DNA of 64,000 nt from Methanobacteriota archaeon (GTDB taxonomy: Archaea > Thermoplasmatota > Poseidoniia > Poseidoniales > Poseidoniaceae), in the NCBI GenBank assembly GCA_004195635.1, contig PSPT01000003.1, positions 38,146 through 102,145 of the forward strand. Reading direction: 5' to 3'. The notes under the pieces were generated by a model. That model did no database searches and was not told the DNA's origin. It saw nothing but the letters and a program-made list of their open reading frames with translations. Position numbers and translations under genes: made by a program. How positions within the stretch are numbered: position 1 is the stretch's first letter; each line of letters opens with the position of its first letter. This document shows, in pieces, positions 5,344 to 58,285 of the stretch.

Positions 5344-8300
5344 TCAATCAAACAGGTCATCATCCATCCAAGTATTCTCTTTAGTACCACTTTGACGAAG
5401 TAGAGTCACTAAAACGACGAGGAGGAGGAGAGAAATTATCGCTCCAAGCCAAATATAAATTGAATCAATTCCAGCAACTGAACCCGTGAAAATGCTTTCT
5501 TCCTCGGCTTCAACGATTCTAATTGTTGGACCATTTGCTTCATTCTCTTCATCGGTTACCAAGTGAGCCTCAATCCACGCTGCACCTTCCCCCTCAAGAG
5601 TCCAATCAACATAGGTTGTATTGCTTGAATCTGCACCAATAGTCACATAACTTTGCTGCAATACAGTGCGTATTCCACCAGGTCGAACTTCCTCCACGAT
5701 TAGTTCAACTGTTCCTTCAAGGCGCCCGGTGTTGTGTACCTCAATGCTCACAGTCAACACCTCTCCTTCTGGCAAGTCTCCTAGTTTTGAATAACTAATA
5801 TCTGCTCTTTCAAGAGACCATTCTGGAGACCTCTGTTCAATATCCCATGAACCAACTGGGACTGCCTCTGAATTGAGGAGTGAATCAAAGTCGTTTCCAG
5901 CCATATCTGCACCAGTCACCCAAACAATCAATTCCAATGCTTCAAGGTCGGCACCTTCCTCGAGTGAAGAACCAATATCAAGTAACACCGCAAGCGGAAT
6001 TGATTGCCCAGAGAGGCGGTTTTCAATTACATTTGGAGTCATTTGTCCCTCGGCGATAAAAGCAGAACCGGCCTCAGCACCACGGGCTTGAACACGCCAA
6101 TGAATTTGCAATGTATCTGGATTCAATTGCTCAAGTTCGCTGACCCTCAACTCAATTTGTAAAGAGTCCAAGTCGTTGATTGTCAATAATGCATTTGATC
6201 GTGGAGAAAGAACATCATTCACCATAGGAGATTCACCATCAACTACTATCCACATTACTGGAGTAGAACGGTCGGTATAATCCACCGAATTAAGTGGGAG
6301 GTTAGACATTTCCACATTGAACGGATAAGCACCGGAAATCAAAGGCATGTCAATCTCTGCGCTAAAACCACCGTCTTGGGAAGTCACAATGTGCCTTACT
6401 CCGTCGATTAATAGTGCGACATCAAGGAGGGCTTGTGGATGAGTTCCATCTGTTGCCCAAACCACTTCACCACGTACTACTGCTTTTGCACCTGGCTGAA
6501 CCCATGCTCCTTCGCTATTGGGGACTGCCCCCTCAATGTCAATTGAAAGACTTGAAGTATCAACCATCATATCTGGAGAATATCTCCAGCGCAACTCGGG
6601 AAGAGTTACCCATGAACCTTGACCAGCGCGGTCAAGGATAGTAATTGAAGGCTCACGCGAAAGGTAAGTGTCGGCAACTAAAGTCCACTGTATTTCAAAT
6701 TCGATGCGCAATTCCAAATCTTCACTGAAAGGTGTAGTGTCATTTTGAGCCGAACCCAAGATGCAGGAGTTTATTACCAAATCTAGGCTTGCCGTAGTAC
6801 AGCGGTTTGTAGGCCCATCCCATTCTATAGACAGAGTGTCTGTTTGCGAATTACTTGCCAATTGCAAAGTTGCTGATGCAAGGTCTGAAAAACCATTTTG
6901 CTCTGTCAGTGGAACCACAATAGTGTATGCAACTTCGGGATGTAACCAAGGATGTGGGCCATCTTCAATCTCAATGTTTGTCATATCAAGGACTGGGGCA
7001 AAATCTCGGCGCACTTGATACATGAAGAGGTAATCTTCAGAAGTGGAGGAACCACCGCCAAATAACAAATTTCCAGCAGCATCTCCACCATATAACCATC
7101 CTGCAACATTTGAACCATCAGGAGCGTTTGTATCGTCATGAATATAGGAATATTCACCCGATGCGAGAGACATATCTTGAGGCAGAATAATGCTTGTTGG
7201 CCTATATTCATCGCTACTTGGCAAGCCATTGCCATCACTATCATCGAGCCATTCTCGCCAAATTTGCAAATGAATGCCACTTGGTAATATTGGCCTATCA
7301 ACTATTGTAAAAGTAAGTTTTTGGGAAATACTTGGTGCGAGGTGGTCATGACGTTCAATATTCATTGAGATTAACTCCGGAGAAAGTGAATCGGTTTGGA
7401 ACGTTTTTGACATTGCCTGAACAAATCCAGACCCACTTGAGCCATTATTTGTGCCTCCACCAGAACCACCAAGTATGGCTAGCCTGATTTCCCAGACAAC
7501 ATATGCACCTGAAGCAGGAACTGTTGCACCAATTGTAGCGAGTCCTTGATCTACAACTCTTGTACTATTGATGAGGTTGCCGTCTTGCAATAAATATACT
7601 TCAACATCATCAGTTCGCGGCGCCCATTGAGACCCTACATTTTCAAATCCGAGATCAATTTCCAATTCGACATCAGCACCTAGCTTGAGATATTGCGCAT
7701 TGCTTGGCACAATATTGCCGATTTGATTTATCACCCACCAATCATTGATTACCGGATCATTTTCAACTCCCAAAGTTGAACCTCCACCAAATGTAAACCT
7801 CACTGGCACACAATGAACTGAAGTTTGAGTGATCATTTGGATCATAATGTCTAGGGAATCCTCATCATCCCAGTCCTGCATTAGTCTAAACCGCCACAGT
7901 GTTTTGAATTTATCACCTGTTTGGTTTAGGAACCCGGGGTTCTCTGCCCATTCAATCAAATGTGAATCACCTCTTGAAACACAGTTTGCAGGGGGCTCGC
8001 CCACATTTTCAGGAGGTAGGAATATACTCCCAGTGCACTCAAAAGTCGCATAGTGACCTATTGCTGCAATTGTCAACTCGACTCTATTGGCACCTTCGGA
8101 AGTATTGAATGTCGCAAATACTTCATTCCATTGATAGGAGGGAGTCACTGGTTGAGTTTCACTCAGATTGAGCAAGTTTCCATAACTATCAGGGGCTCCA
8201 CCATTAGATTGTTGCGAAACGATTTGTACATTATATCCCGCAGGCCCAGTGCTTTGGAAGGGAATGGGGATCTTCTTACTACCTGGGAGGGACCAAAGTT

Positions 8301-10347: not shown

Positions 10348-10543
10348 CATAGCAATACCTACTAGGCGTCTAAGTACTATAATACATCGCTTCATTCTCA
10401 TGAATAATTTATGCACAAAACGCACTACTTCGCTGCATATTTCAATAAACGTCTATTCAGCCAATTATACCTTTTCCATTTCGAACCGGACTCACTCCGC
10501 CACAATTATGGCCTAATTCCAAGTTCTTTTTGAGAGAATAATA

Positions 10544-23912: not shown

Positions 23913-25010
23913 CTAATCTTTCTTTACTGAACGACCTCGATTTCCACGAGCGGTAGCAAAGGAACTCACTCTGGCCTTCTTTTTTGGCTTTGTTCGTCGC
24001 GTCCCATCTCCTCCCAAAGAATCAGTAGAAGTTGTGCCTCCAACCGATAGAGAACCGGAAGAAAGTAATTCACTCACCAGTTCATTAGCGACATCCTCAT
24101 CATCAGCCCCACTTTTCAACTCATCAGTAACTGCCGCATTATGTTCGGTCATCCAAGACTTGCGCTCTTCATGTTGTACCTTTAACTCATTTCGGGCTTC
24201 GGTAACTTGGTCCATTAATTCAGACATTTTACCATGAATCTCATCTGCTTTTCCTCTCTCTTCAAGGAAACCATTGTGAAGTCGGTCGCCCTCTGCTTTT
24301 AGGAAGTCGCGTTGCTCAAACATTCCATCTAACACCTCACTCATAGCATCTGAAATCTTTACTTGCTCAATCATTGCTTGGTGGGAAACATCTGCTTCAG
24401 CCTTTAGTGTTGCAATTGCTTCGTCAATATTAGACAAGTCAATCTTTACCATCTCAAATTTCTTTATTGAGGGCTCCAATTCTGCTTGCCTTCGCTTTAA
24501 CTCCTTAATTGCCTTGATCATGTTCTTTTCTTTTGATGGAGTTAATGTACCACCAGTTTCAAACCTTTTTTCTAACATTGAAACTTCGGACAAAATTTTA
24601 TTGTATTCCCCAACAACTGAACCCTCTTTCTTGGAATTACCACGGTTTCCGCTCTGTTGTGCATAGAGGTCGCGTAGTTGTGCTTGCATTGCATTACGGC
24701 GCTCCTTATGTTGATTGATTAATTCGCGAACTGCTTTTCGTTCTTCGAGTTTTTCATCAAGTGCAATACGATGATCTTTGTAATGTGTTTGCACAGCATT
24801 TCTCTGTTCTGCAAAACGCTTCGCAGCATCATTGAAATTATTTCGCACATCGCGCATCTTGCGCACCTTTGCTTCCATCTCATGCAACCTATCATGCAGG
24901 TCTGCATCGGGGCGTTCTTCCTTTTCCTGACCTTTGGCCATGAGCCTTGCGAAGTGCTTTATGGTTTCAAACCTACCCTGCCCAGTCGATTTCAATAATA
25001 CGATTGCCAA
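23913..25010 (-). CDS. Coiled-coil protein with Lys/Arg-rich C-terminal tail (paralogue of the three coiled-coil genes at 30265-35252; resembles uncharacterised archaeal coiled-coil proteins of the COG1340 type)
   Basis: Long heptad-pattern charged helices (KAEADVSHQAMIEQV...). The tail is TRRTKPKKKARVSSFATARGNRGRSVKKD. Confidence 0.55.
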   Translation of the reverse strand: MAIVLLKSTGQGRFETIKHFARLMAKGQEKEERPDADLHDRLHEMEAKVRKMRDVRNNFNDAAKRFAEQRNAVQTHYKDHRIALDEKLEERKAVRELINQHKERRNAMQAQLRDLYAQQSGNRGNSKKEGSVVGEYNKILSEVSMLEKRFETGGTLTPSKEKNMIKAIKELKRRQAELEPSIKKFEMVKIDLSNIDEAIATLKAEADVSHQAMIEQVKISDAMSEVLDGMFEQRDFLKAEGDRLHNGFLEERGKADEIHGKMSELMDQVTEARNELKVQHEERKSWMTEHNAAVTDELKSGADDEDVANELVSELLSSGSLSVGGTTSTDSLGGDGTRRTKPKKKARVSSFATARGNRGRSVKKD

Positions 25011-33474: not shown

Positions 33475-34185
33475 TTAGTCAAATAATGGACCCAATATTA
33501 TTGGCCCATGTGGCCCAACATCAAGCGCTTGCTTTTCCATTGAATGGCGGACATGGCGCAGTTTTTCCACCTGCATTGTTCGAACGATTTGTCCATTTCT
33601 GCGGTCAACTCCCATCTTGATAATTCCATCTGCCAAGAAACCTTCATTCCCTTGCAATTCAGCATATTCGCCATATTGGCGCTCGGTCAATATTATCACA
33701 TTTAGTTTCTGTTGGCGCAAAAAGTCAAAGAACTCAAACATCTTATTTCGCATGCTGTCATTAACAGTTGTTAAACTGTATATTGCACCAAGTGAATCCA
33801 AGACAAAGGTTGTAAATCTCTCACCATGTTGTTGCTTAAAATGTTCGATCATTCTGCGGGTGAACTTTAGATAATCCATGCCTGCATTTTCACGACGTAA
33901 TTCCGTGAAATCAGTGATTTGAAGGTTGTGAGGTGGATGTATCCCCAATGACTCCGCACCTCGCAATAAAGATTCAACAGTTTCTTCAATCGTACAATAC
34001 AATCCAAACTCGCCTGTGCGCGACAAATGATTACTCATTACGGTAAGAGCAAATCCTGTTTTCATCGAACCCGGCGGGCCAGTCACCAATGTGACATATG
34101 GTGCACGAATATCTCCAGTCATCACTCGGTCCATTCCTTCAATCCCATTTAGCAACATATGAACGATACCTCCCACCCACATCAA
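33475..34185 (-). CDS. Single-domain KaiC/RadA-like RecA-superfamily ATPase
   Basis: Walker A GPPGSMKTGFA, Walker B-like hhhhDS (FVLDSLGA). Length about 236 aa, typical of archaeal KaiC-like signalling ATPases. Confidence 0.75.
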   Translation of the reverse strand: MMWVGGIVHMLLNGIEGMDRVMTGDIRAPYVTLVTGPPGSMKTGFALTVMSNHLSRTGEFGLYCTIEETVESLLRGAESLGIHPPHNLQITDFTELRRENAGMDYLKFTRRMIEHFKQQHGERFTTFVLDSLGAIYSLTTVNDSMRNKMFEFFDFLRQQKLNVIILTERQYGEYAELQGNEGFLADGIIKMGVDRRNGQIVRTMQVEKLRHVRHSMEKQALDVGPHGPIILGPLFD

Positions 34186-34376
34186 TCGCTTAACTATTGG
34201 CCTTATACAATTGCAATTATTTCATTATTACAATATTATTATTTTGCGGCAATTGTTGAAAAATAATATGTTTATGGGTGCAAAGAAATGAAATCAAAGC
34301 CGCATGGATTAAAGAGGGGGGTCGGGTCGGCAGAATGGCCGAGATAGAGATATCTCGCCCGCGGAGTTGATGCAAT

Positions 34377-35252
34377 ATGGCAACATTGAAGGATATTCTT
34401 GATGAACCACGAAAATTAGTTGATAAAAAAGCAACTGAATTCCGCAACATCCGCGATGAATGGAATGCGAAAACTAAAGAACACCTCATCAAGAGAAATA
34501 CCCTAAATGGTGAGGTCCGTGAACTCATTGAAAATGTAAAGCAACAACGTGAAATTCGGGAGAGAATGAACGAGGAAGTCCGCGCCCGGAAGTCAGAACG
34601 AAATGTTATTGACAAGAAAATTAGAGAAATGAAGGACTCAATGGATACTGGAAAGGATGAAACTAAGAAAAAGGAGGGCCCTCGCGACAAGAAAGGACGC
34701 CCAATCACAATCCATACTCTTCGCCGAGAATCTGAACGTCTTGACAGAGAATTCGGAATGGGCTTCCATACGGGGAAAAATGAGAAAAAGGTAATGAAGC
34801 GAATGAAGGAAATTCGCCAACAAATCAAAACCATGGAAAAAACTCAAGCCGCAGCAGAAGGTACTGACGAAATGAAGGAAGCGCTTAGTGTAATCAATGC
34901 AGAACAAGACGTTGCCCACAATCTAGTCCGCGAAGCAGCATCACAAGCACAACAAGCACACGACCTAATGATCGAGTGGAATGAGCAAGTTGATGCACGA
35001 CGTGAACTCGCTGAAAGCGCACATCGTAAACTTCGTCGTTCAAAGAAGGAAGCAGATGTCACCCATCACTCATACATACTCTCCTTGAGGTGTTTACATA
35101 GCATTCTAAACATGTCACGGGCAATGAGGGAACGGGAGAGAGGAACGGCCCCAACCATGACTGCCAAAGAAGGAACAACTGATTTGATGCAAAAGTTAAT
35201 GTCAGGACAGACACTTTCTACCGACGAACTTCTGTCATTACAGAAATTCTAA
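34377..35252 (+). CDS. Coiled-coil protein (COG1340-like paralogue)
   Basis: Charged heptad helices with a KKKEGPRDKKGRP basic insert. Similar architecture to 30265-31080. Confidence 0.55.
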   Translation: MATLKDILDEPRKLVDKKATEFRNIRDEWNAKTKEHLIKRNTLNGEVRELIENVKQQREIRERMNEEVRARKSERNVIDKKIREMKDSMDTGKDETKKKEGPRDKKGRPITIHTLRRESERLDREFGMGFHTGKNEKKVMKRMKEIRQQIKTMEKTQAAAEGTDEMKEALSVINAEQDVAHNLVREAASQAQQAHDLMIEWNEQVDARRELAESAHRKLRRSKKEADVTHHSYILSLRCLHSILNMSRAMRERERGTAPTMTAKEGTTDLMQKLMSGQTLSTDELLSLQKF

Positions 35253-36569: not shown

Positions 36570-39500
36570 TTATATTCTTCTAACCCATTGGAAGGTTGTT
36601 TGATCTCGAGCATGCCACATTCCTGAACCTACGGGGTATTCCATCCATTCATTTCCGTCTGAACGAACTTCACCGGTCATGTTTGCAGTAGGTGTAGTTG
36701 GAGTCATGGCTTGATCTGAAGCAGTTGGCATCATTACTGCATGAGCGGTTTGGGCAACAGGTCTGCCAAAGGCATCAACTTGCTGAGCAGGTTGGACTGG
36801 CTGGGCATAGGCAGGTTGGACTGGCTGGGCATAGGTAGGTTGGGCTTGCGCACCATAATCCCCGGCTACTTGCTCGGCATACATTTCTTCCTCCCAACTA
36901 TCATCATCATCATCATCATCACCCCGCCGCATTATTGTAAATAGCATAATTAGTACTACTGCAATGATGACAAGAACGACTCCAATGATGGCTAGAGTCG
37001 TCGTTGACATTCCAGCAATTCCATCGGAATCGCCAAACAATCCACCAGATGAGGTTCCATTTCCTCCTCCATCATTATTATCCTCAATTTCAATTATCAT
37101 TTCTGGCGGGCAGCCAAGCCACTCAATTGCAGTAGAGGTGCCGTAATTATCGGGACATACATCAGCATCAAGCCCAGTAGTATTATCACCAAATCCATCA
37201 CCATCGGCATCGGCCCATTGAGTTACATCAGTTCTAAAGGCATCAGCCCCGTTGGTTGTAAACCAAGTCAATCCATCGGGGTCAGAATAACCATCGCCAT
37301 CAGTATCAACACAACCTTCTCTATCCTCGGAAGAAGTACCACTTTGGTTTGGACAGGCATCCTTTGAATCACCAATTCCATCACCGTCTATATCTCGGTA
37401 ATCATCTACATCATTAGGGAAGGCATCGAGAACATCAGCATAACCATCGTCATCGGTATCTCGGCAACCATAGAATTCATCCTTCCAAGAACTACCAAAT
37501 TCCAAAGGACAAGCATCCTGCATATTTGCAAGGAATAAATACTCGCCAGGCCAATTTTCATTTCTAGTGACTTGCCAAGACTCATTTCCAAAATTGTCTC
37601 CATATCCATCTTCATCAAAGTCGGTCCACTGGGTTGAATCATTAGCAACTGCATCTGCTCCATCCTCAACTAACCAAAATGAATCTGGGTCGGAATAACC
37701 ATCGGAATCCATATCTGGGCAACCCCATCTGTCATCAATCGAAGAACCGGCATCATTCGGGCAATCATCTGGACGAATCCCATCTTGGTTATCACCAAAC
37801 CCATCACTATCACTGTCTATCCACTGAGTTGAATCAAGAGGAAGGGCATCTTCACTATCTGCCCATCCATCTCCATCTCCGTCTAAACAACCATCCAAGG
37901 TTCCGTTATTGGAGGACCCAAATACATCTGGGCAATCATCTGTGATGTTGGCCCAGCCATCACCATCATCGTCGGGGCAACCGAGGTAAGCACCGAGGCT
38001 AGAATTTCCGGCCTCGTCAGAACAAGCATCAGAAGAATCATTGACGCCATCACCATCATCATCCGAATCTTCATCTGCATCACGACAACCATCACCATCA
38101 ATGTCAGATGAAGGCTCACTGACCCACACTGGACGTTGCAATATGGCATGATCCCAATTACTCTTAGGACAGGAATCGTTTGTGTCTTCAACATTATCAT
38201 TGTCATCATCTAAATCTTCATTTAAGTCGCGGCAACCATCTAAATCCCAATCGGTAGAAGTGTTTTTATCAAGTGGGTCTGAATCTGAAATCCAGCCGAT
38301 CTCGCCTTGTGGGCAATCGTCACCGGAATTATCAAGGATTGTGTCATTATCATCATCATAATCACATGCATCACCATCTAAATCCTGATCTAAATCTTCC
38401 TGCAAGGGGTTTGCATCATTTGGACAATTATCTAAATCATCTGGGATTCCATCTCCATCAGCATCAGCAGCGAGAAGACCTGATGAACTCCAAATATAGG
38501 GGTTGATAGAAGCCAATGCGGTTTGTGAACCAGAATTTGTTGAACTGAAATCAATACTGCCACTGAATGTGCCAACAATAGAAATATTCCCTCCATTATC
38601 AACTGCAATATCAGCAGCATTATTATCTGCACTTGAATTTGCTCCAAATGCGGAAACCCATGAACCTGAATTGGAGATAATAGCCAAAGCACTATCGTTT
38701 GCACCTTGGGAACTGATTGTGTCGGGCCCGAGAGTAATTGAACTTGCACTGGAAATTGACAGAACGCCATTGTCTGACATTGGGTCAACAGCGACATCGG
38801 TGACGCGGTCGTAAGTACTACCTCCAACAAGAGCAGACCAACTCCAAGTGTTTGGAGTTGCAAGTTTTGCAACCCACCCACTCGTATCCCCGCCAGGTGA
38901 ATTGAGGGTAGTGGAACCAAAAGTAATGCTCGAAGTGAAAGTCCCCCCGAGGAATAAATCGCCGTTTGTAAATTCATCAATTCCATAGATAAAACTGTCC
39001 GCTCCAGAAATCGACATCGCTGATTTCCATGCTCCAGTGGAATCAATTTGCGCAAGAACTGGAGTTGAATCACCAGGTGTTCCGGTAACTGAATGGGAGC
39101 CGAAATTCATATTTCCATCAAAGGTACTCGAAATCCATGTATCTCCATTTGATTCCATATACATCGCTTGAGTTTCTTGGAATGCAGGACCTCGCGCTTC
39201 AGCAGTCCACTGTAGACTACCTGATGAAGCATATTTGGCAACGAAAATTTCAGCATCATCTCCGCTTGTTCCGCCGCTATCTACTGCTGTTCCTACATCG
39301 GTATTGCCGATGAATAGTCCCGACACCACAACGCCTGAATTGGATGCTACAATAGCAGTTGGCCATACTGCATCAAGAGTTGTTACTGTCGTACCATCAT
39401 AATCACCATTTCCTTGCAATGCACTTGCCCATTGCCATTGACCAGCAGAGTTGGCCTTTGCAGTATATGTATCATAATAACCAGTCGAGGTAAGGCTATG

Positions 39501-40061
39501 GCTACCAAAATCAATTGTACCATAAAACATACCAGTCACATACATATCTCCGTTTGCCGATACTGCGATACCAGATAGAGTTGATTCAGAATTAGTTCCA
39601 GCACCAACTCCAGTTTCAGCCGTTTCAGCCCATTGCCAATTGCCCGATGAATCAGATTTGCCAAACCATGGTTGAATATAATTTGCTGAAGAAACTGCAT
39701 TTGGACCGAGGGACAATGAAGAACTACCACTAAATATTCCTGCGGAATATATGTTTCCAGAGACTGGCTCAACTGCAACGGCACTGCCCACTGCAGGGGA
39801 TGAACTAGCTCCAATATCAGACCAGCCCGCAATAGCACGGGCGCCTGAGCGAGCAGCAGCAAAAGAAGAGGAATCAAGAGCAGTGATACTACTTCTGTCA
39901 TCACTTGTAACTGGCGAGTCCACAGAATCTAGAGAGAAGGTTGAACTATCGTCCGAAAAGAAGGCAAAATTAGCCAAAATACTTGTGAGTAATAGTAAAG
40001 TAAGAACACCTGCAATTCCAGTTCGGCTGGTTGCCTTTGGAGTTTGAATAGAGGTCGCCAT
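36570..40061 (-). CDS. Giant exported surface protein with SBBP-type beta-propeller repeats, thrombospondin-type-3-like Ca-binding repeats, a C-terminal TM anchor and a cytoplasmic poly-Asp plus QPxYAQPV-repeat tail
   Basis: N-terminal signal (GIAGVLTLLLLTSILANFAF). Repeats of the form G.FxG.IDFGS...S.G..D.YVAK (SBBP-like). Multiple DxDxDGxxDxxDxCP units (TSP3-like). TM helix LAIIGVVLVIIAVVLIMLFTI followed by RRGDDDDDDDSWEEE and YAQPVQPAYAQPVQPAQQ. The track start is 40106; an internal Met at 40061 precedes the signal peptide. Confidence 0.75.
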   Translation of the reverse strand: MATSIQTPKATSRTGIAGVLTLLLLTSILANFAFFSDDSSTFSLDSVDSPVTSDDRSSITALDSSSFAAARSGARAIAGWSDIGASSSPAVGSAVAVEPVSGNIYSAGIFSGSSSLSLGPNAVSSANYIQPWFGKSDSSGNWQWAETAETGVGAGTNSESTLSGIAVSANGDMYVTGMFYGTIDFGSHSLTSTGYYDTYTAKANSAGQWQWASALQGNGDYDGTTVTTLDAVWPTAIVASNSGVVVSGLFIGNTDVGTAVDSGGTSGDDAEIFVAKYASSGSLQWTAEARGPAFQETQAMYMESNGDTWISSTFDGNMNFGSHSVTGTPGDSTPVLAQIDSTGAWKSAMSISGADSFIYGIDEFTNGDLFLGGTFTSSITFGSTTLNSPGGDTSGWVAKLATPNTWSWSALVGGSTYDRVTDVAVDPMSDNGVLSISSASSITLGPDTISSQGANDSALAIISNSGSWVSAFGANSSADNNAADIAVDNGGNISIVGTFSGSIDFSSTNSGSQTALASINPYIWSSSGLLAADADGDGIPDDLDNCPNDANPLQEDLDQDLDGDACDYDDDNDTILDNSGDDCPQGEIGWISDSDPLDKNTSTDWDLDGCRDLNEDLDDDNDNVEDTNDSCPKSNWDHAILQRPVWVSEPSSDIDGDGCRDADEDSDDDGDGVNDSSDACSDEAGNSSLGAYLGCPDDDGDGWANITDDCPDVFGSSNNGTLDGCLDGDGDGWADSEDALPLDSTQWIDSDSDGFGDNQDGIRPDDCPNDAGSSIDDRWGCPDMDSDGYSDPDSFWLVEDGADAVANDSTQWTDFDEDGYGDNFGNESWQVTRNENWPGEYLFLANMQDACPLEFGSSWKDEFYGCRDTDDDGYADVLDAFPNDVDDYRDIDGDGIGDSKDACPNQSGTSSEDREGCVDTDGDGYSDPDGLTWFTTNGADAFRTDVTQWADADGDGFGDNTTGLDADVCPDNYGTSTAIEWLGCPPEMIIEIEDNNDGGGNGTSSGGLFGDSDGIAGMSTTTLAIIGVVLVIIAVVLIMLFTIMRRGDDDDDDDSWEEEMYAEQVAGDYGAQAQPTYAQPVQPAYAQPVQPAQQVDAFGRPVAQTAHAVMMPTASDQAMTPTTPTANMTGEVRSDGNEWMEYPVGSGMWHARDQTTFQWVRRI
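36787..36850 (-). repeat. 24-bp perfect tandem repeat (2 exact copies plus a degenerate third) encoding the cytoplasmic QPAYAQPV repeat
   Basis: gcaggttggactggctgggcatag occurs at 36787-36810 and again at 36811-36834, followed by gtaggttgggcttgcg. Confidence 0.85.
36899..36922 (-). repeat. (ATC)7 trinucleotide microsatellite encoding the poly-Asp stretch
   Basis: tcatcatcatcatcatcatc seen directly. Confidence 0.8.
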
Positions 40062-40210
40062 GTGTTGCCGTGGAGGTTTTAGGTGTTGAAACCTACCCTT
40101 TCGCAATTTTGATAATTATCTGCAATAATAAACAGTGAAGCCAATAATGGATAATTTTTCAACCTTCAAAGAAAGGAAAAATCCACCCCTCATCCAAAAG
40201 ATGGCAGGAA

Positions 40211-50878: not shown

Positions 50879-52381
50879 ATGGTTAGACATAGTCTTTTCA
50901 CAAACTCAGAGGTTGAACGAGAAAGAGAAATCTTGCAATCTAGGGGTAGGAAAGTCATCTGGTTGACACCCGATAATCAGGAAATAGAGGCTCAAATACC
51001 CCCCACGACCTACCCCCCGAGAAAGGACACCTCAATGCTCGCCGAAGCGATTTTTTCTTTGGGTGAAGGAAGGGGGCGAAAAATGCTTGAAATCGGTTGT
51101 GGAAGTGGAGTAATAGGCACTTGGGCAAATCAAAGAAATTGGCGATGTTCGGCTTGTGATATTAACCCGTATTCTGTAGCCGCAACTAGGGCATTATTCA
51201 GCAACTACGGATTCCCTCCAGAAATGGTCCGAGAAGGAGGGCCAGGTGAAGGAGCGAACTCTGCTTGGGCTGGAGATGAAAATTACGACCTTATCGTCTG
51301 GAATTTACCTTATATGAGTCCACCCCAAAATGCCACGGAATTACTTGGACCTCTCGAAGAATCAGCATTGCTTGACCTTGAAAAGGACGGCACTGATTCG
51401 CTATTGCTCAACTCACTCCAAACTATTGAACCTAACTCAGCAAGCATTTCGCACACTAAAACCCAGCACCCAACCGCAGCAGATGCCCTCAACATCTCAG
51501 CCTCTGCACAAACCCAGCAAACCTCATTCAAGGGAAGTCGATTGCTTGCAAAAGGTGGCTTGATATTATTAGTTCACTCATCAAATGAAAACGGACGAAG
51601 AATATCTGGGAAATGGGCCAAAAAGGGTTGGGCGAGTAAAATCATTCATTCAACTTCTTTTGCAGATGGAGAAGAATTGTTTGTTTTGGCTCTTTGGCGG
51701 GCTTTTTCTGAGGCCCGAGTAGAACGCGTTGATTCAATTGATTCTACCAATCGCTACTTACTGGAAAAGGGTGGTCGACTCGGAAGCAGGATCTGTGCAA
51801 TCCAGCAAACGGAAGGCCGCGGCATGTCAAACAATAAGTGGGATACAAGAGATGGAAGTTTTGCTTGCTCTTGGGTTTTACATGATGGAATGCAAACTCA
51901 ATTCAAACCTGGGCAGGCGCAATTGCTCGCAGGCCTAGCCACTCTAAAGGCAATAAACTTCCTTACCGATGACACAGGCGGTACAAAAAAAGAGGGCGTT
52001 TTCAAAGGAATTGAAATATTCCAAAAATGGCCGAATGACATTTGGTCAAAACACGGAAAGGTAGCAGGAATTCTCATTGAAGGGCGCTCGGATGGGACAA
52101 AGCAAACTATCGTCTTAGGAATCGGCGTCAACCTATGCGAAATAGCAAGCGGCCCCTCATCTGCATACTCCAAGCAAAATACTGCGCATGAACACAAATA
52201 CCCTCATGATTCTTTGCAAAATATGCCACCCTCGCCAGTTATTTTGAAAATCCCCCACTGCAAATTCTACCCACAGAAAAGGAAAATATTATCCCACAAA
52301 CCGACATTAGTTTCATCGCTGAAAAAGCACAGATTTTTTCCAACATTACACACTACTTGCACCATCACTCTAAACCTATGA
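50879..52381 (+). CDS. Fusion protein: N-terminal HemK/PrmC-like SAM-dependent methyltransferase domain plus C-terminal biotin--protein ligase (BirA-like, BPL_LplA_LipB) catalytic domain
   Basis: N-terminal half: LEIGCGSGVIG (SAM motif I) and YDLIVWNLPYM ([ND]PPY-type motif IV). C-terminal half: VDSIDSTNRYL, QTEGRGMSNNKW (degenerate GRGRxGRxW) and KWPNDIWSKHGKVAGILIEG (the KWPND...GK.aGIL.E BirA signature). Single uninterrupted 500-aa ORF. Confidence 0.7.
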   Translation: MVRHSLFTNSEVEREREILQSRGRKVIWLTPDNQEIEAQIPPTTYPPRKDTSMLAEAIFSLGEGRGRKMLEIGCGSGVIGTWANQRNWRCSACDINPYSVAATRALFSNYGFPPEMVREGGPGEGANSAWAGDENYDLIVWNLPYMSPPQNATELLGPLEESALLDLEKDGTDSLLLNSLQTIEPNSASISHTKTQHPTAADALNISASAQTQQTSFKGSRLLAKGGLILLVHSSNENGRRISGKWAKKGWASKIIHSTSFADGEELFVLALWRAFSEARVERVDSIDSTNRYLLEKGGRLGSRICAIQQTEGRGMSNNKWDTRDGSFACSWVLHDGMQTQFKPGQAQLLAGLATLKAINFLTDDTGGTKKEGVFKGIEIFQKWPNDIWSKHGKVAGILIEGRSDGTKQTIVLGIGVNLCEIASGPSSAYSKQNTAHEHKYPHDSLQNMPPSPVILKIPHCKFYPQKRKILSHKPTLVSSLKKHRFFPTLHTTCTITLNL

Positions 52382-53261: not shown

Positions 53262-53750
53262 TCAGTTACTTTTCCTTGGTGGCTTTTGCAAACCCATACG
53301 CTTGCGAACCATGGCGATTTTCCCCGATGCAGTTACGGAAGAAAATATGCTGGAAACCGAAAGATTTTCTTCCCCTTCCAGTCTTACAGAAATATCAATT
53401 TCGGCACCATCAACAGATGAATTGGTGGCGGCAGAAAATATACCTCGCAACAGAGAATAGTCTTTCAAATCAATTCTAACAATCGCCCTGCCGTGATGAA
53501 CGGAATTATCTGAAATATCTGCTGAATCTGTTGAAGATAGGGAGGAATTAGTTTGCTTTGGTGCATAATGGCAATCAAAGAGGCGCCATTTGAATTGATC
53601 AGCAACGAATTTGGCAAATTTTTGCTCAAAAATAGTTCGGCTTTGAATGTCAGCGTCAAACTCAACTCCAACCCAACGCCACTTCGGGCGCAAGGCCTTG
53701 GTCAATTTCCGCTTACCCAAATTGGGGTTGGAATTGCCGCTCATGCGCAT
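53262..53750 (-). CDS. Hypothetical basic protein. Start reassigned to an internal Met; the track ORF extends to 54221.
   Basis: The upstream 470 bp of the track ORF are antisense to the N-terminus of the plus-strand membrane protein and encode Ser-rich low complexity. Starting at MRMSGNSNPNLGKRK... (53750) removes the overlap and creates a 46-bp divergent intergenic region. Confidence 0.4.
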   Translation of the reverse strand: MRMSGNSNPNLGKRKLTKALRPKWRWVGVEFDADIQSRTIFEQKFAKFVADQFKWRLFDCHYAPKQTNSSLSSTDSADISDNSVHHGRAIVRIDLKDYSLLRGIFSAATNSSVDGAEIDISVRLEGEENLSVSSIFSSVTASGKIAMVRKRMGLQKPPRKSN

Positions 53751-53796
53751 CCGAGGGCCGCACCCCTTAACATGCTTAGACCTCCGGCAACAGTTC

Positions 53797-55452
53797 ATGG
53801 TTGCATCGAACGACCCATCGCTTGATGGCGGGGAAGAGGCAGATGACTTATTGAGTGATCTAATTGATTCAAGTGATGAATCCACTGAAACAACTGACGG
53901 ATCAACAGACTCATCATCATCCGGCGAAACAAATCCCCTCACCCCAGCAGTCGGAGAAAAGGAATTCAATGAAGATATTGACTCCTTTGGGATTTTTACA
54001 CTTCTAAGGACTATATTAGCACGAAATACGATGCCGCACATTCTTCTTTTGGCGACTTCCGCCTTTTTCCTTAACATATTGGCAAATAGTTCGGCAGATG
54101 GTTCTGCAGAGTTTGCGGCAATGGGCTTTATTTCACTTGCCGGAGCATATGCAATCGTCGCCTTACTTTCAAAGAAAGAGTCAATGCAACGAATGCTACA
54201 TACAAGCCCTTTCTCTCTCACCGAGGGGGAAGAAAAATCATTCTCAAATGTAATGATTCATAAAACAAAGCAGATAGTCAAAGTTTGGGCATTACCACTA
54301 GTTATTACTGGAGCACTTCTAATGCTACTAATGGTATCATTTAGCGATGATAGTCCGCTTGGTTCTGTTCGCAGTTACCTGCCTTTTGGATTAGGGTCTC
54401 TTTTTGTCGCATGGTCTATTGGCCAGGGAGTTTCATTTAGAGCATCAATCGCTACAATGATCAAAGAGAAAGTCTCGGAAAAATCAACTGAGATAAGCCC
54501 TCCACATTTTTGGCCGATAGCAATTACGATGATGGTGGCAAACCTAATTGTGGGTGTACTCCTCATCATTTTATTCTCAGCAATTCAAGATAAGGAATTA
54601 ACAACATCTCTTGACCAAGCAAGCACTTCAATTGGAGGACATGTGTTATTCATTGTACTGATTTTGGCATCGCAGGGTGGATTATTGTGGTGGTCAAAGG
54701 CATTTGTGGAAAGTGCAAGTACTAACAAGCAAAGTAATTCCTTTTCCCTGCGTTGGGGAATAGCAGTTCAAGCATTTGCAACATGGCACCTAATGTCTGT
54801 ATATCGACAATACATGATGGCATCACCATCTACTTTCACCGCAATTGAAGAAGGACTCCTAATGATAATCACCGTTTTGCTTGCCATTTGGGGAATGACG
54901 ACAAAAGGAATCGCCAAAGAAAACAGTATTTTTACTAAGGATAATGCGCTCTTTTGGGGATTGGCATTTGGCTTTGGATATGCTGGGTCAATCGCGATGG
55001 TAGCGAATGTATTGGGCGACGTCAAGGGAGTCTTAATCGCCGGTCACCTAATCACCTGGATGACCCTTCAACTCCTCCACCGCGCCGCATTAAAGGACTT
55101 CCTAATCTCAAAAGGCCAAATTGATAAGGCTGGAAATGATAAGACCGAACCAAGTGACACCCCATCTGAAAATTCCGGCTCTGAGGCAATTGCCGCCGCT
55201 GGAAAAGAAGCAGGAGATGGTGAAGAGGACGAGGCTCCAGTTGGCGAAAATATAGATTTGGATGGAGATGCAATTGGTGATGATTCAAATGTTGATTGGA
55301 GCGGAGAAATACCCGATCCAATCGTTGCAGATGAGGATTGGGGCGGAGACGAGCAAAATGAGAATCCGCCAGTCAATACTGATGAAGAAGATTCAAGTGA
55401 CCAAGATGAAAGCAATGGTTCATTTGACGATGATTTGGAATTACTAGATTGA
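53797..55452 (+). CDS. Polytopic membrane protein with acidic N- and C-terminal tails, unknown function
   Basis: About 10 hydrophobic helices. The C-terminus is DWGGDEQNENPPVNTDEEDSSDQDE... Start taken at the in-frame ATG at 53797 (MVASNDPSLDGGEE...); the track start is 53647. Confidence 0.5.
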   Translation: MVASNDPSLDGGEEADDLLSDLIDSSDESTETTDGSTDSSSSGETNPLTPAVGEKEFNEDIDSFGIFTLLRTILARNTMPHILLLATSAFFLNILANSSADGSAEFAAMGFISLAGAYAIVALLSKKESMQRMLHTSPFSLTEGEEKSFSNVMIHKTKQIVKVWALPLVITGALLMLLMVSFSDDSPLGSVRSYLPFGLGSLFVAWSIGQGVSFRASIATMIKEKVSEKSTEISPPHFWPIAITMMVANLIVGVLLIILFSAIQDKELTTSLDQASTSIGGHVLFIVLILASQGGLLWWSKAFVESASTNKQSNSFSLRWGIAVQAFATWHLMSVYRQYMMASPSTFTAIEEGLLMIITVLLAIWGMTTKGIAKENSIFTKDNALFWGLAFGFGYAGSIAMVANVLGDVKGVLIAGHLITWMTLQLLHRAALKDFLISKGQIDKAGNDKTEPSDTPSENSGSEAIAAAGKEAGDGEEDEAPVGENIDLDGDAIGDDSNVDWSGEIPDPIVADEDWGGDEQNENPPVNTDEEDSSDQDESNGSFDDDLELLD

Positions 55453-55476: not shown

Positions 55477-56412
55477 TCAAGATGGTAAGCCAGCACCACT
55501 AATCACTGCAACTACTCTTATTTTTCCTTCCAATTCGGATGTTGTTCTGGCTCCGAGGATTACTTGAGCATCCCTGTGTAATCCCGAAGTAAAAGCACTT
55601 GCTACGGCTTCAAGTTGCTGAATAGTCATGCCAATTCCACCTTCAACTTGAATCAAGCAACCTCTCGCTCCTTGTATTTGCACATCGTAAAGTGGTGCTC
55701 GCACAGCATTTTGGAAAATCAACATTGGAGAATCGGGGTCGCCTTCAGCTACAAGCAATGTAGAACGGCCGTCTTTTTGAACGATAGAACGAAGGTCCAT
55801 GAGGTCCAAATTGATGAGCCCTATCTTTGAAATTGTCGTTACCAAGCCTTCGACTAATTCTTCGATCCATGCTGCCCCTAAACGCCAATCTACGCCTCTT
55901 TCACGTGCCTGCCATGCCAACCGGTCCAATGATAGTCGCACACAAACGTCTGAGTATTTCTCCAGTTTTACGCAGGCTTCCTCGGCAACTTGTCGCCGAG
56001 AAGGTTGTGCATCAAAAGGCAAAGCAGCGATAGATAGCACAAGTGCGCCGCGGCGCTTTGCTTGCCGGGCCATGTCGGGCGCAGCGCCACTTCCGGAACC
56101 GCCCCCAAGAGCGGTCAAAAGAATTACCAATTCAACCGGTTCGAGAACTCGGTTAACAAATTGAGTCAAATTACGCATACGTTGTTCACCAAGTTCGGGT
56201 AAAGAAGCACAACCAGAAGAATCGGGACTATCACCCAAAGTAAGCACATGAGCCTGCGTAGGTGAATCAACTCCACTAGGGTCAGCGTCAATCAGTAGCA
56301 AATCAACATTTGTACCACAACGTGTTTTGGCCCGATTGGCCCACGTACACCCCAATCCTCCGACACCAACAAGGAGCAGAGAAGCGTCTTTCATAGGGTG
56401 GACCTCAAACAC
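55477..56412 (-). CDS. Divergent FtsZ/tubulin-superfamily GTPase (short, 311 aa, FtsZ-like paralogue)
   Basis: Tubulin/FtsZ signature GGGSGSGAAP (T4), LSIAALPFDAQP (matching VTKPFsFEG), NLDLMDLRSI (T7 N.D..D) and a G1-like LLLVGVGGLGCTWANR segment. No long C-terminal tail. Confidence 0.75.
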   Translation of the reverse strand: MFEVHPMKDASLLLVGVGGLGCTWANRAKTRCGTNVDLLLIDADPSGVDSPTQAHVLTLGDSPDSSGCASLPELGEQRMRNLTQFVNRVLEPVELVILLTALGGGSGSGAAPDMARQAKRRGALVLSIAALPFDAQPSRRQVAEEACVKLEKYSDVCVRLSLDRLAWQARERGVDWRLGAAWIEELVEGLVTTISKIGLINLDLMDLRSIVQKDGRSTLLVAEGDPDSPMLIFQNAVRAPLYDVQIQGARGCLIQVEGGIGMTIQQLEAVASAFTSGLHRDAQVILGARTTSELEGKIRVVAVISGAGLPS

Positions 56413-56500
56413 CCCTAAACCCCATAGTCAATGAACTTACACCCAATTATTACAGGTTCAAAGTAAAATTAGTAAAACAAATAATTCGTCGTATTTCGAC

Positions 56501-56815
56501 TCAATCATAAGTAAGGAAACGCTGATATTTACGGCGCTGGTCTCGTGCCCAAGCATTATCTGGCTCTAAATCAAGAACTCTCTGATAATATCCTACCGCC
56601 TTTTCAAACTCCGACAAATGTTTGCCGTACAAGTGTCCTAAATTGTTCAACACAGGGATGCAATCCGCTTCTTCCTCCAGCATAGCGAGAAACATATTCT
56701 CGGCTGCTGTTAAGTCCTGCTTTTCCATCTTATCCTCTGCCTCATCCAAATCTTGTAATTGTTTTGCAGAGAGTGAATAGGTATTCTTGAAGGGTGTTTC
56801 AACCATGCTGACCAC
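56501..56815 (-). CDS. Small TPR-repeat protein
   Basis: Two TPR-like helical hairpins (LNNLGHLYGKHLSEFEKAVGYYQRVLDLEPDNAWA). Lies 88 bp upstream of the FtsZ-like gene on the same strand. Confidence 0.55.
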   Translation of the reverse strand: MVSMVETPFKNTYSLSAKQLQDLDEAEDKMEKQDLTAAENMFLAMLEEEADCIPVLNNLGHLYGKHLSEFEKAVGYYQRVLDLEPDNAWARDQRRKYQRFLTYD

Positions 56816-57019
56816 GCACTACCACAGAGCAGCACACTTTCAACCCAGCGGAGAAAATTTTTAGCGTCGGGCAGGGAAAAAATACTCGGTGGTGAGCCCA
56901 ATAGACACCTGGAAATCTGATAATTGTAATAAATAGCATTCCCATAATCGAAGAACTGTCCTCTTTACCCTACATTATTTGTTGCCGGTGAATGAGAGAG
57001 AGGGAGGGTAATCCTCAAT

Positions 57020-58285
57020 ATGGCTCGGCGTTTGGCGGGAAACATGGCATTACCTGAAGTCGTAGTAGTAGGCGGAGCAAGAACCCCATTTTGTGAATGG
57101 GCTGGTGGAAAAAGAGGAGATGGAAAGCCTGGCGGATTGCTAGCCGAAGTCAGTGCTGAAGATTTAGGTGCAGCCGCTATTCGCGGTGCTCTTGAAAAGA
57201 CTGGATGCGACCCTGCGTCGGTTGACCATGTCGTAATGGGATATGCACTACAAACCTCAGATCAAGCGATTTTTGGTGGCCGACACGCAGGACTCAAAGC
57301 GGGTATCCCTCAAGAAGTGCCGATGTTAACCCTCAGCCGAATATGTGGGAGTGGGGCTCAATCAATTGTTTCTGGCGCTCAAATGATCATGCTTGGAGAA
57401 GCCGAAGTCGTAGTTGCCGGAGGCATGGAAAACCTAAGCCAAGCTCCTCATGTTTTGCGCGGAATGCGTTCAACATACCGTTTGGGTCGTCCTCCACGGG
57501 CTGGAGATGAGTTGCCCAAAAATATGGAAGATTACCTTTTCACAAACCTGTTGGATGGGATGTGTGGCTCATTTATGGCACAGACTTCCGATGAACTTTG
57601 CCGACGCAAAGGAGTTACTCGCGAGGAAACTGATGCCTTCGCTGCACTATCACAAAATCGCACTGAAAAATCAATAGACGAGGGCATTTGGCATCAGGAA
57701 ATTGTTGAAGTTGAAACTCCATCTGGTGTTGTTGGTGCAAAAGATGAAGACCATGTTGTACGCAACACAACTCCCGAATCTCTTGCAAGTTTGCGAACAG
57801 CCTTTGGAGAGGATAGCCTAGTTACTGCCGGAAATGCTTCTGGCGTAGTAGATGGCGCCGCTGCGGTGGTCATCAAGTCGGCTGAACGAGCAAAGGCTGA
57901 TGGTGACGATGTTATTGCAAAGATTGTCTCTTGGGGAATTGTTGGACTTGAACCTGCAATCATGGCTTATGGGCCAGTGCCGAGTAGCCGACTTGCTCTT
58001 AAAAAAGCCGGACTGACCGTTAATGATATTGATCGCTGGGAAATTAACGAGGCTTTTGCCGGTCAAGCAGTAGCTTGTATTAACGATCTTGAAATCGATG
58101 TAGAAAAAGTAAATGTCAATGGTGGTGCAGTTGGATTAGGACACCCGCTAGCAGCAACAGGAACCCGGCTAGTTCTTACTTTAGCATATGAATTACGTCG
58201 CTGCGGCGGCAAATATGGCGTTGCTACTGCATGTATTGGTGGCGGTCAAGGAATTGCAGTAATTATTCAAAATCCATCAGTCTAG
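57020..58285 (+). CDS. Acetyl-CoA C-acetyltransferase (thiolase)
   Basis: N-terminal VVVVGGARTPF, active-site Cys region SRICGSG, and C-terminal thiolase signatures NVNGGAVGLGHPLAATG and GVATACIGGGQGIAVII. Confidence 0.9.
   Translation: MARRLAGNMALPEVVVVGGARTPFCEWAGGKRGDGKPGGLLAEVSAEDLGAAAIRGALEKTGCDPASVDHVVMGYALQTSDQAIFGGRHAGLKAGIPQEVPMLTLSRICGSGAQSIVSGAQMIMLGEAEVVVAGGMENLSQAPHVLRGMRSTYRLGRPPRAGDELPKNMEDYLFTNLLDGMCGSFMAQTSDELCRRKGVTREETDAFAALSQNRTEKSIDEGIWHQEIVEVETPSGVVGAKDEDHVVRNTTPESLASLRTAFGEDSLVTAGNASGVVDGAAAVVIKSAERAKADGDDVIAKIVSWGIVGLEPAIMAYGPVPSSRLALKKAGLTVNDIDRWEINEAFAGQAVACINDLEIDVEKVNVNGGAVGLGHPLAATGTRLVLTLAYELRRCGGKYGVATACIGGGQGIAVIIQNPSV

What the first reader, a model, noticed from the sequence alone, without database searches (positions are those of the whole stretch)
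55477..56815. Short divergent FtsZ/tubulin-family GTPase with a degenerate G1 loop, preceded by a TPR protein
The 311-aa protein retains the T4 (GGGSGSGAAP), T5-like (ALPFDAQP) and T7 (NLDLMDL) elements of FtsZ. Its N-terminal glycine loop is VGVGGLGCTWANR rather than GVGGGGNNAVN, and it lacks the C-terminal linker/tail used by canonical FtsZ for membrane-tether binding. This fits the FtsZ-like families that are not the main division protein. A small TPR protein is encoded 88 bp upstream on the same strand and could be its partner.
Basis: partly seen in the sequence, partly recalled or inferred. Interest (0 to 1): 0.55.

Follow-up and report, generated by a model that had tools for sequence, protein, structure and literature searches.

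The report
Tail-less FtsZ paired with TPR protein
Marine Group II archaea, among the most abundant archaea in the surface ocean, carry a second, stripped-down copy of the cell-division protein FtsZ that has lost both tails and rebuilt its nucleotide pocket, and it is always encoded next to a small TPR partner protein whose role has never been studied.

Summary
A 101-aa TPR gene lies directly upstream on the same strand.

The short length is genuine. Hundreds of Poseidoniales (Marine Group II) homologs are 299-310 aa, and the AlphaFold model is a complete FtsZ core (TM about 0.85) with no N- or C-terminal tails.

The "degenerate G1 loop" is a misdiagnosis. The T1 and T4 glycines and the catalytic T7 motif N-x-D-x-x-D are intact. 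What changed is the base-, ribose- and gamma-phosphate-contacting set in T1 (Asn), T2, T3, T5, T6 and H7, mostly to new residues that are invariant in the family.

The protein is neither CetZ nor FtsZ-like-1. MGII genomes also hold a canonical FtsZ1 with a C-terminal tail, plus SepF. The short protein is a long-branch paralog, most likely derived from FtsZ2. Its nearest relatives (MGIII's second FtsZ and P0147) sit behind CdrS-like RHH genes, whereas MGII has the TPR gene there.

TPR-FtsZ adjacency holds in 88 of 88 loci and survives three flank rearrangements.

Verdict: a new variant of a known kind, moderately interesting, with its function inferred rather than shown.

The parts
55477..56394 (-). 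Tail-less divergent FtsZ paralog (305 aa plus stop). The mechanical ORF extends to a GTG at 56412, but the true start is probably the ATG at 56394.
   Evidence: Pfam Tubulin and FtsZ_C. PDB and Foldseek matches to FtsZ cores. AF2 pLDDT 84.7. All homologs start at this Met.
56402..56406 (-). Shine-Dalgarno-like GAGGT, 7 nt upstream of the FtsZ ATG.
   Evidence: Read directly from the sequence. It supports the Met7 start. Inference only.
56395..56500 (-). Intergenic spacer between the TPR and FtsZ genes. It is 106 bp and AT-rich here, and 8-39 bp in other lineages.
   Evidence: Whether it holds an internal promoter or a terminator was not tested.
56501..56806 (-). Small TPR protein (101 aa plus stop; the ORF extends to a GTG at 56815). 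It has two TPR repeats plus an Arg-rich capping helix.
   Evidence: Pfam TPR_8/TPR_1. AF2 pLDDT 93.3 with five helices. Foldseek matches to consensus and peptide-binding TPRs. Directly upstream of the FtsZ gene in 88/88 loci. The family is confined to MGII.
53647..55452 (+). Convergent multi-pass membrane protein with a hyper-acidic C-terminal tail (ends ...DDDLELLD). It is a candidate third component and is not established. Homologs align only from about residue 110, so the N-terminus may be over-called.
   Evidence: No Pfam family. 6-8 predicted TM segments. Adjacent and convergent in 77/77 loci, but not in L098. Acidic tail motif.

Best explanation
This is a Poseidoniales-specific FtsZ paralog reduced to the bare globular core.

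Shown:
- It coexists with a canonical, tail-bearing FtsZ1 and with SepF in MGII genomes.
- It has lost the N-terminal extension and the C-terminal linker and peptide through which archaeal FtsZ binds SepF.
- It keeps the phosphate-binding glycine loops (T1 GxGGxG, T4 GGGxGxG) and the complete T7 catalytic motif N-x-D-x-x-D.
- It has replaced the residues that read the base, the ribose and the gamma-phosphate with a new set that is itself invariant in the family.
- It is always encoded directly behind a small MGII-specific TPR gene on the same strand.

Inferred:
- It descends from the archaeal FtsZ2 lineage, whose usual upstream partner, the RHH regulator CdrS, has been replaced by the TPR gene.
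- It still binds a nucleotide through its phosphates, with altered or relaxed base specificity.
- It still makes FtsZ-type head-to-tail contacts, either with itself or with FtsZ1.
- The co-expressed TPR protein supplies the protein-protein link that the missing tail used to provide, acting as an adaptor to a membrane anchor or to the FtsZ1/SepF ring.
For: Fold and family.

Conserved short length and loss of both tails.

Pocket: of 48 positions that are at least 85% conserved in 48 canonical FtsZ sequences, 27 are kept (including every T1 and T4 glycine and T7 N/D/D). Ten are replaced: N51, N70, T71, G98, F126, E165 to Q, G176, N192 to L, A207 deleted, F208 to W. Most of the replacements are invariant residues (D42, A69, Q136, L162, W176).

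A second FtsZ plus SepF in MGII: Pende et al. Suppl. Data 1, and the EHR75921.1 sequence with an intact pocket and the tail ...NRHIEFVN.

FtsZ2 affinity:
- In one published ML tree the clade is sister to MGIII's second paralog, inside a Thermoplasmatota clade.
- My NJ tree puts it on the FtsZ2-like side.
- All 9 members score best on the FtsZ2-type HMM, 186 against 164-166 bits.
- It has the FtsZ2-like T5 spacing.
- No canonical MGII homolog appears between MGIII's paralog family and unrelated archaea.
- The nearest relatives, P0147 and the MGIII paralog, sit 1-17 bp behind tandem-RHH genes, which is the published cdrS-ftsZ2 hallmark (PMC7439475).

TPR partnership: 88/88 adjacency on the same strand, with 8-39 bp gaps in most lineages. 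It persists in subfamilies only 41-45% identical and across three independent flank rearrangements. The TPR protein is 60-95% identical across MGII.

Precedent for a TPR protein encoded in an operon with a tubulin-family filament: Bklc with BtubAB (PMC5372463).
Against: - There is no functional, expression or interaction data of any kind.
- The FtsZ2 origin is not robust. The clade's stem is 1.0-1.9 substitutions per site, and its position differs among the three published trees (sister to MGIII, to Methanocella, or to Nanopusillus). My bootstraps do not resolve a sister group. The HMM preference is only about 20 bits. MGIII's own paralog lacks the T5 deletion. The genomic position differs between MGII and MGIII (against 54).
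- The whole neighbourhood is frozen across Poseidoniales, so adjacency alone is weaker evidence than 88/88 suggests.
- In this window the spacer is 106 bp and AT-rich, so co-transcription is not certain here.
- Loss of the Asn, Asp and Glu contacts could mean that no nucleotide binds at all.
- I could not scan whole MGII genomes to prove that canonical FtsZ2 and cdrS are absent. One genome in Pende's table lists three FtsZ hits.
Confidence: 0.5

Rival explanations
1. Filament capper or regulator (a pseudo-GTPase). The protein uses its intact T7 face to dock onto the GTP pocket of the terminal FtsZ1 subunit, but its own remodelled pocket cannot hold GTP or recruit the next subunit. It therefore caps or destabilises FtsZ1 filaments, and the TPR protein modulates or localises that activity. 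This would work like plant ARC3, whose FtsZ-like domain inhibits FtsZ assembly (comparison from my own knowledge).
For: T7 N-x-D-x-x-D is invariant, while the base, ribose and gamma-phosphate contacts (N51, NTD, GAGG, E165, N192, D212) are all changed. There is no tail for independent membrane attachment. A canonical FtsZ1 is present as a potential target.
Against: The T1 and T4 phosphate-binding glycines are fully conserved, and the replaced pocket residues are invariant rather than drifting. Both argue for a pocket that still binds a ligand. No interaction data exist.
Confidence: 0.2
2. A cytoskeletal role outside division, analogous to CetZ in haloarchaea: cell shape, motility-linked morphology or positioning of a membrane complex. 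It would have evolved independently from an FtsZ duplicate, with the TPR protein and the neighbouring membrane protein as its attachment system.
For: It is a lineage-specific extra paralog alongside a complete FtsZ1/SepF set. It is uncoupled from SepF by loss of the tail. The conserved neighbours are membrane and respiratory genes.
Against: It shows no sequence or structural affinity to CetZ. Its closest relatives are division-type FtsZ2 genes linked to cdrS. If it is the FtsZ2 ortholog and MGII has no other FtsZ2, a division role is the simpler expectation.
Confidence: 0.15
3. An ordinary FtsZ1 or FtsZ2 that only looks short because of a mis-called start or stop, or a decaying pseudogene.
For: The mechanical ORF start was indeed off, by 6 codons.
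Against: Hundreds of homologs from 314 species-level genomes are 299-310 aa, with stops immediately after the last strand. Mean column identity is 61-66%, with about 50 invariant positions. The model is a complete, confident fold. In several lineages the downstream convergent gene overlaps or abuts the stop codon.
Confidence: 0.02

Closest known systems
Archaeal FtsZ2 (e.g. Haloferax volcanii HVO_0581), encoded in the cdrS-ftsZ2 operon
   Same: It has the two-domain FtsZ core with Pfam Tubulin and FtsZ_C. FtsZ2-type sequences give the best profile score, and it shares the FtsZ2-like T5 spacing. It sits immediately downstream of a small same-strand gene. It is the second FtsZ in a genome that also has FtsZ1 and SepF.
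   Different: It has no N-terminal extension and no C-terminal linker or 'GID' peptide. The nucleotide-contact residues in T1 (Asn), T2, T3, T5, T6 and H7 are replaced. The upstream gene is a TPR protein, not the RHH regulator CdrS. Identity to any FtsZ2 is only about 30%, and the tree placement is unstable.
Second FtsZ paralog of Marine Group III (e.g. OIR21729.1)
   Same: It comes from the sister order within class Poseidoniia. It is sister to the MGII short clade in one published ML tree (UFBoot 70). It is also preceded by a tightly linked small gene.
   Different: The MGIII protein keeps all canonical GTP-binding motifs and a 26-residue C-terminal tail. Its partner is a tandem-RHH protein. 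It lies in a different chromosomal neighbourhood and is only about 26% identical to the short family.
BtubA/B with Bklc in Prosthecobacter (PMC5372463)
   Same: A tubulin-superfamily filament protein is encoded in an operon with a TPR protein, which is proposed to link the filament to membranes.
   Different: BtubA/B are true tubulins, Bklc is a long kinesin-light-chain-like TPR protein encoded downstream, and the host is a bacterium. The resemblance is one of architecture only, not of homology.
   Same: They are additional, non-canonical tubulin-superfamily paralogs in archaea.
   Different: CetZ structures match only at E 0.03-0.2, and Tubulin_2 scores 12 bits against a cut-off of 27. The C-terminal domain here is of the FtsZ_C type. 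It is not a member of either family.

Membership tests
FtsZ/tubulin superfamily, FtsZ branch | Tubulin/FtsZ GTPase domain followed by an FtsZ-type C-terminal domain | tested here: met
   PF00091 scores 57.2 bits (cut-off 33) and PF12327 scores 62.3 bits (cut-off 27). Foldseek TM is 0.83-0.87 to FtsZ cores.
Canonical cell-division FtsZ (TIGR00065 equivalog) | Score above the curated equivalog cut-off | tested here: not met
   142.3 bits against a cut-off of 295.2.
Canonical cell-division FtsZ | Conserved GTP-contact residues: T1 Asn, T2 N-T-D, T3 G-A-G-G, T5 Glu, T6 Asn, H7 Phe/Asp | tested here: not met
   All are replaced in the short family, while the T1/T4 glycines and T7 N-x-D-x-x-D are kept.
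Canonical cell-division FtsZ | T7 synergy loop N-x-D-x-x-D | tested here: met
   N201, D203 and D206 are invariant in 68 sequences.
Archaeal FtsZ1 / FtsZ2 | C-terminal linker plus the conserved 'GID' peptide that binds SepF (PMC8178401) | tested here: not met
   0-9 residues follow the last strand and carry no GID-like motif. MGII FtsZ1, MGIII FtsZ2 and others have 24-30.
Archaeal FtsZ2 | Placement inside the FtsZ2 clade in a phylogeny | tested here: inconclusive
   It falls on the FtsZ2-like side in my NJ tree and is best on the FtsZ2-type HMM in 9/9 members. It is sister to the MGIII paralog in one of three published trees and elsewhere in the other two.
Archaeal FtsZ2 | Upstream co-transcribed RHH gene cdrS (PMC7439475) | tested here: not met
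   The upstream gene is a TPR protein with no similarity to the RHH partners of P0147 or MGIII.
CetZ | Sequence or structural affinity to CetZ rather than to FtsZ | tested here: not met
   CetZ chains 4b45, 3zid and 4b46 match at E 0.028-0.22, against 1e-31 for FtsZ. The 50 best Foldseek matches listed are all FtsZ.
FtsZ-like group 1 (Tubulin_2, PF13809) | Match to the Tubulin_2 model and large N- or C-terminal extensions | tested here: not met
   12.3 bits against a cut-off of 27. The protein has no extensions.
TPR repeat proteins (the upstream gene) | Helix-turn-helix TPR repeats | tested here: met
   TPR_8 scores 26.6 bits against a cut-off of 25.7. The AF2 model has five helices at pLDDT 93. 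It matches consensus TPR structures over 74-83 aligned columns at rmsd about 1 A.

The most novel reading that the evidence does not exclude
The three conserved neighbours form a SepF-independent tethering module. The multi-pass membrane protein presents a hyper-acidic C-terminal peptide (...D-[VIL]-E-[LIV]-x-[DE]), which resembles both EEVD-type TPR ligands and the archaeal FtsZ 'GID' tail. The small TPR protein clamps this peptide with its invariant Arg-rich helix and simultaneously binds the tail-less FtsZ. The anchoring peptide has thus been moved from the filament protein onto the membrane partner. In addition, the rebuilt pocket may have changed nucleotide specificity away from GTP.
Probability: 0.15. 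Interest if true: 0.75.

Novelty: new variant of a known kind. Interest (0 to 1): 0.55.

Why it matters
[quoted passage not shown] Current models of archaeal division (FtsZ1, FtsZ2, SepF and CdrS) come from haloarchaea and methanogens.

This locus indicates that a whole, ecologically dominant order has kept FtsZ1 and SepF but has swapped the cdrS-ftsZ2 module for a tail-less FtsZ with a remodelled pocket plus a dedicated TPR protein.

If the protein still polymerises, it is a natural experiment in which FtsZ contacts are dispensable for nucleotide binding and how a filament can be tethered without its C-terminal peptide. If it does not, it is a naturally evolved FtsZ pseudo-enzyme. Both possibilities can be tested with recombinant proteins.

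The family already sits unremarked as a very long branch in a published FtsZ/tubulin tree. Recognising its peculiarities also matters for phylogenies of this superfamily, where it is a source of long-branch artefacts.

Tried and rejected
- Second FtsZ nearby: none in the window and none within +/-10 kb in 89 loci.
- Positional orthology with MGIII's second paralog: rejected, because the neighbourhoods differ completely (against 54).
- Homology between the MGII TPR protein and the MGIII/P0147 upstream RHH proteins: rejected (hhalign probability 0.3%, phmmer E > 0.3).
- Viral origin or carriage: no relatives on IMG/VR contigs.
- CetZ or Tubulin_2 membership: rejected.
- Mis-called start or stop, or pseudogene: rejected.
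- Pfam assignment of the MGIII small proteins as RHH: sub-threshold (E 0.05-0.14). Their identity rests instead on a full-length alignment to the Pfam-confirmed RHH partner of P0147.
- The T5 one-residue deletion as a clean FtsZ2 synapomorphy: only partly holds, since MGIII's and P. horikoshii's paralogs lack it.
- Pfam annotation of the rest of the window found no SepF, MinD, CdrS or other division gene.
Full report
**What is there.** The window is archaeal: it contains an archaeal RNase P RNA at 4953-5254. It is ordinary chromosome, with RNA polymerase subunits, tRNA synthetase and glycosyltransferase genes.

The larger protein matches Pfam Tubulin (57 bits) and FtsZ_C (62 bits). Its best match among solved structures is M. 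jannaschii FtsZ1 (E 3.7e-31). It reaches only 142 bits on the FtsZ equivalog model, whose cut-off is 295. CetZ structures match at E 0.03-0.2 and the Tubulin_2 (FtsZ-like) model scores 12 bits, so those two families are excluded.

**Gene boundaries.** The product is therefore 305 aa (55477..56394). The TPR gene most likely starts at the ATG at 56806, giving 101 aa, the commonest family length.

**The short length is real.** A search of 5.8 billion proteins returned 598 cluster representatives. The 120 listed are 300-347 aa long, and the named ones are from Poseidoniales (Poseidoniaceae, Thalassarchaeaceae). The exhaustive search of representatives shows an isolated family. Four full-length representatives of 299-310 aa score 346, 256, 233 and 213 bits. 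Apart from two Altiarchaeales fusion proteins with two FtsZ domains, scores then fall to 148 bits or less, at about 30% identity, for a mixture of archaeal and bacterial FtsZ.

A scan of one genome per species found relatives in 314 genomes. The AlphaFold model (pLDDT 84.7, pTM 0.85) is a complete two-domain FtsZ core that superposes on bacterial and archaeal FtsZ at TM 0.83-0.87. In the alignment, 5-7 residues precede strand S1 and 0-9 follow the last strand. Canonical FtsZ has 9-57 and 24-77. The protein is essentially the crystallographic core with nothing attached.

**What has changed in the active site.** I took 48 canonical FtsZ sequences (archaeal FtsZ1-like, FtsZ2-like and bacterial) and listed the 48 alignment positions that are at least 85% conserved among them. 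The short family keeps 27 of them. These include every glycine of T1 (GxGGxG) and T4 (GGGxGxG), the P-F of T5, and N, D and D of the T7 loop. Eleven are partly kept and ten are replaced.

The replaced positions, in M. jannaschii 1FSZ numbering:

| Canonical position | Element | In the short family |
|---|---|---|
| N51 | T1 | variable |
| N70-T71 | T2 | D-A (NTD becomes DAD; D42 invariant) |
| G98 | T3 | A (invariant) |
| F126 | | I/L |
| E165 | T5 | Q (invariant) |
| G176 | | mostly A, variable |
| N192 | T6 | L |
| A207 | H7 | deleted |
| F208 | H7 | W (invariant) |

The H7 aspartate D212 aligns with A/S/G.

A non-glycine at the fifth position of GxGGxG is normal in archaeal FtsZ (GGAGCN, GGMGCN). 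From established knowledge of FtsZ structures, the lost residues are those that contact the guanine base, the ribose and the gamma-phosphate, while the retained glycine loops bind the phosphates. Because most substitutions are fixed to new invariant residues, the pocket looks remodelled under selection rather than decayed. Whether it still binds GTP, binds another nucleotide or binds nothing cannot be decided from sequence.

**Other FtsZ genes in these organisms.** There is no second FtsZ in the window, nor within +/-10 kb in 89 related loci. Supplementary Data 1 of Pende et al. (PMC8178401) lists one to three FtsZ hits, mostly two, plus one SepF for four of the five Poseidoniales genomes.

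The supplement of Santana-Molina et al. (PMC9871819) gives the sequence of one of the two hits in the first assembled MG-II genome, EHR75921.1. It is a canonical FtsZ with a long N-terminal extension, an intact GGAGCN / NTD / GAGGDP / GGGSGTG / PF..EG / PNERLL / NLDFED set, and a tail ending ...NRHIEFVN. It groups with Methanobacterium and other FtsZ1 sequences. The short protein is therefore the other hit, EHR75994.1. So MGII has FtsZ1 plus SepF plus this protein.

**Which paralog is it?** The same supplement shows that short-family members (PXF22034.1, MBJ28927.1 and others) were already in the published FtsZ/tubulin/CetZ trees. They form a clade on a stem of 1.0-1.9 substitutions per site. 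In one tree it is sister to MGIII's second paralog inside a Thermoplasmatota clade (UFBoot 70), in another it is sister to a Methanocella sequence, and in a third to Nanopusillus. No Poseidoniales or Marine Group term occurs in the paper's main text.

My own analyses agree on the direction but not on a firm placement:
- In a gamma-corrected NJ tree the family is monophyletic in 300/300 bootstraps. It lies on the FtsZ2-like side, away from the M. jannaschii FtsZ1 / T. volcanium / MGII-FtsZ1 / bacterial group, and its sister is unresolved.
- All nine members tested score best against an HMM of FtsZ2-type sequences: 186 bits, against 164-166 for the other archaeal sets and 138 for bacteria.
- The family shares the shorter T5-H5 spacing seen in most FtsZ2-like sequences, but MGIII's own paralog does not.
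- Searching with MGIII's second paralog recovers its own family (47-92% identity) and then drops to about 42% identity in unrelated archaea, with no canonical Poseidoniales copy in between.
- The named neighbours in that part of the tree include Thermoplasmatota (Natronoplasma, a Thermoplasmata archaeon).

Synteny adds an independent line of evidence. MGIII's second paralog (three lineages) and P0147, the most frequent bootstrap sister, are each preceded at 1-17 bp by a protein of 113-133 aa. That protein is a confident Pfam RHH_1 match in P0147's genome and aligns end to end with the MGIII proteins. This is the cdrS-ftsZ2 arrangement described as widely conserved in archaea (PMC7439475).

I conclude that the short protein most likely descends from FtsZ2, with moderate confidence. 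The chromosomal position differs between MGII and MGIII, so positional orthology is not shown.

**The TPR partner.** In 85 of 85 family loci with enough upstream sequence, a homolog of the window's TPR protein (52-95% identical) lies directly upstream on the same strand. The same holds in three further loci from the most divergent subfamilies (41-45% identical FtsZ), where the gap is only 8-9 bp.

The whole block is conserved across the order: cyt b, two unknown genes, TPR, FtsZ, the convergent membrane protein, BPL-methyltransferase and rpoH. Adjacency by itself is therefore less telling than the count suggests. However, the pair survives three independent rearrangements. The upstream flank is replaced by thiolase and MFS genes in the window's own lineage, and the downstream flank is replaced in L097 and L098.

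The TPR family is confined to MGII (340 clusters, all about 100 aa, 60-95% identical). Its model (pLDDT 93) has two TPR repeats plus a capping helix, and it resembles consensus TPRs and the peptide-clamping TPR domains of Hsp90 co-chaperones. The last helix, NAWARDxRRRYxRY, is invariant and arginine-rich. It is not related to the RHH partners of FtsZ2.

**How it probably works.** This section is inference. A protein that keeps the longitudinal T7 face and the phosphate loops is likely still to make FtsZ-type head-to-tail contacts, with itself or with FtsZ1. Having lost the C-terminal peptide, it cannot be recruited by SepF in the usual way (PMC8178401). The obligatorily linked TPR protein is the obvious candidate to provide the missing protein-protein link. 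Bklc, the TPR protein of the bacterial tubulin operon that connects BtubAB filaments to membranes (PMC5372463), is a precedent for such an arrangement.

The main rival is that the protein is a capper or regulator: its T7 docks onto FtsZ1-GTP while its own altered pocket blocks further growth. A non-division, CetZ-like role is a third possibility.

**A lead noticed in passing.** The convergent membrane protein has 6-8 predicted TM segments and no Pfam family. It carries a C-terminal tail with a mean net charge of -15 over 40 residues, and the tail usually ends in D-[VIL]-E-[LIV]-x-[DE], as in ...DDDLELLD in the window. This resembles both EEVD-type TPR ligands and the archaeal FtsZ tail motif. 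It suggests, but does not show, a three-part tether of membrane protein, TPR protein and FtsZ. The membrane gene is absent from the adjacent position in L098.

**Novelty.** The family is in public databases, mostly labelled "hypothetical protein" or "cell division protein FtsZ", and it appears unremarked in one published tree. Full-text searches found no paper that discusses FtsZ in Marine Group II / Poseidoniales, and none that pairs an archaeal FtsZ with a TPR protein. None describes its tail-less architecture, its remodelled pocket or the replacement of CdrS by a TPR protein. It is a new variant of a known kind. No relatives occur on viral contigs.

Noticed in passing
window 53647-55452 (+); homologs in L001-L097: The conserved convergent multi-pass membrane protein has no Pfam family. 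Its C-terminal tail is hyper-acidic (mean net charge -15 over the last 40 aa) and usually ends in D-[VIL]-E-[LIV]-x-[DE] (...DDDLELLD here). This resembles EEVD-type TPR ligands and the archaeal FtsZ 'GID' tail. The first ~110 residues of the window ORF are not covered by homologs and overlap a 319-aa antisense ORF (53262-54221), so the start may be over-called.
   Followed up: partly
L090:7604-7999, L092:7583-7984, L094:7601-7999, L099:5657-5998: Marine Group III's second FtsZ paralog and an unnamed divergent FtsZ (P0147) are each preceded at 1-17 bp by a 113-133 aa protein with two ribbon-helix-helix halves. This is a tandem-RHH version of the CdrS partner of ftsZ2. Pfam recognises it in only one of the four.
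   Followed up: partly
proteins P0124 (826 aa) and P0126 (744 aa): Altiarchaeales (Candidatus Altiarchaeum hamiconexum and WOR_SM1 bins) encode proteins with two FtsZ domains in tandem in a single polypeptide.
   Followed up: no
window 50879-52381 (+): This is a fusion of an N-terminal small methyltransferase domain (MTS/PrmA-like) with a biotin/lipoate protein ligase domain. It is conserved next to rpoH across Poseidoniales.
   Followed up: no
window 56816-58285 versus L001-L089: The window's lineage (and the 97%-identical contig L010) has a rearrangement breakpoint immediately upstream of the TPR gene. Thiolase and an 811-aa MFS-fusion protein replace the cytochrome b / CCG-ferredoxin cluster found there in all other Poseidoniales loci examined.
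   Followed up: partly
window 33475-35252 and 23913-25010: A KaiC-like ATPase gene sits next to a DUF7121 protein, with a second weak DUF7121 match about 10 kb away. Their function is unknown.
   Followed up: no
window 5344-10425 (-), 36570-40106 (-): Two very large ORFs (1693 aa and 1178 aa) have no or only trivial Pfam matches (a thrombospondin type-3 repeat in the latter). They are probably secreted or surface proteins.
   Followed up: no
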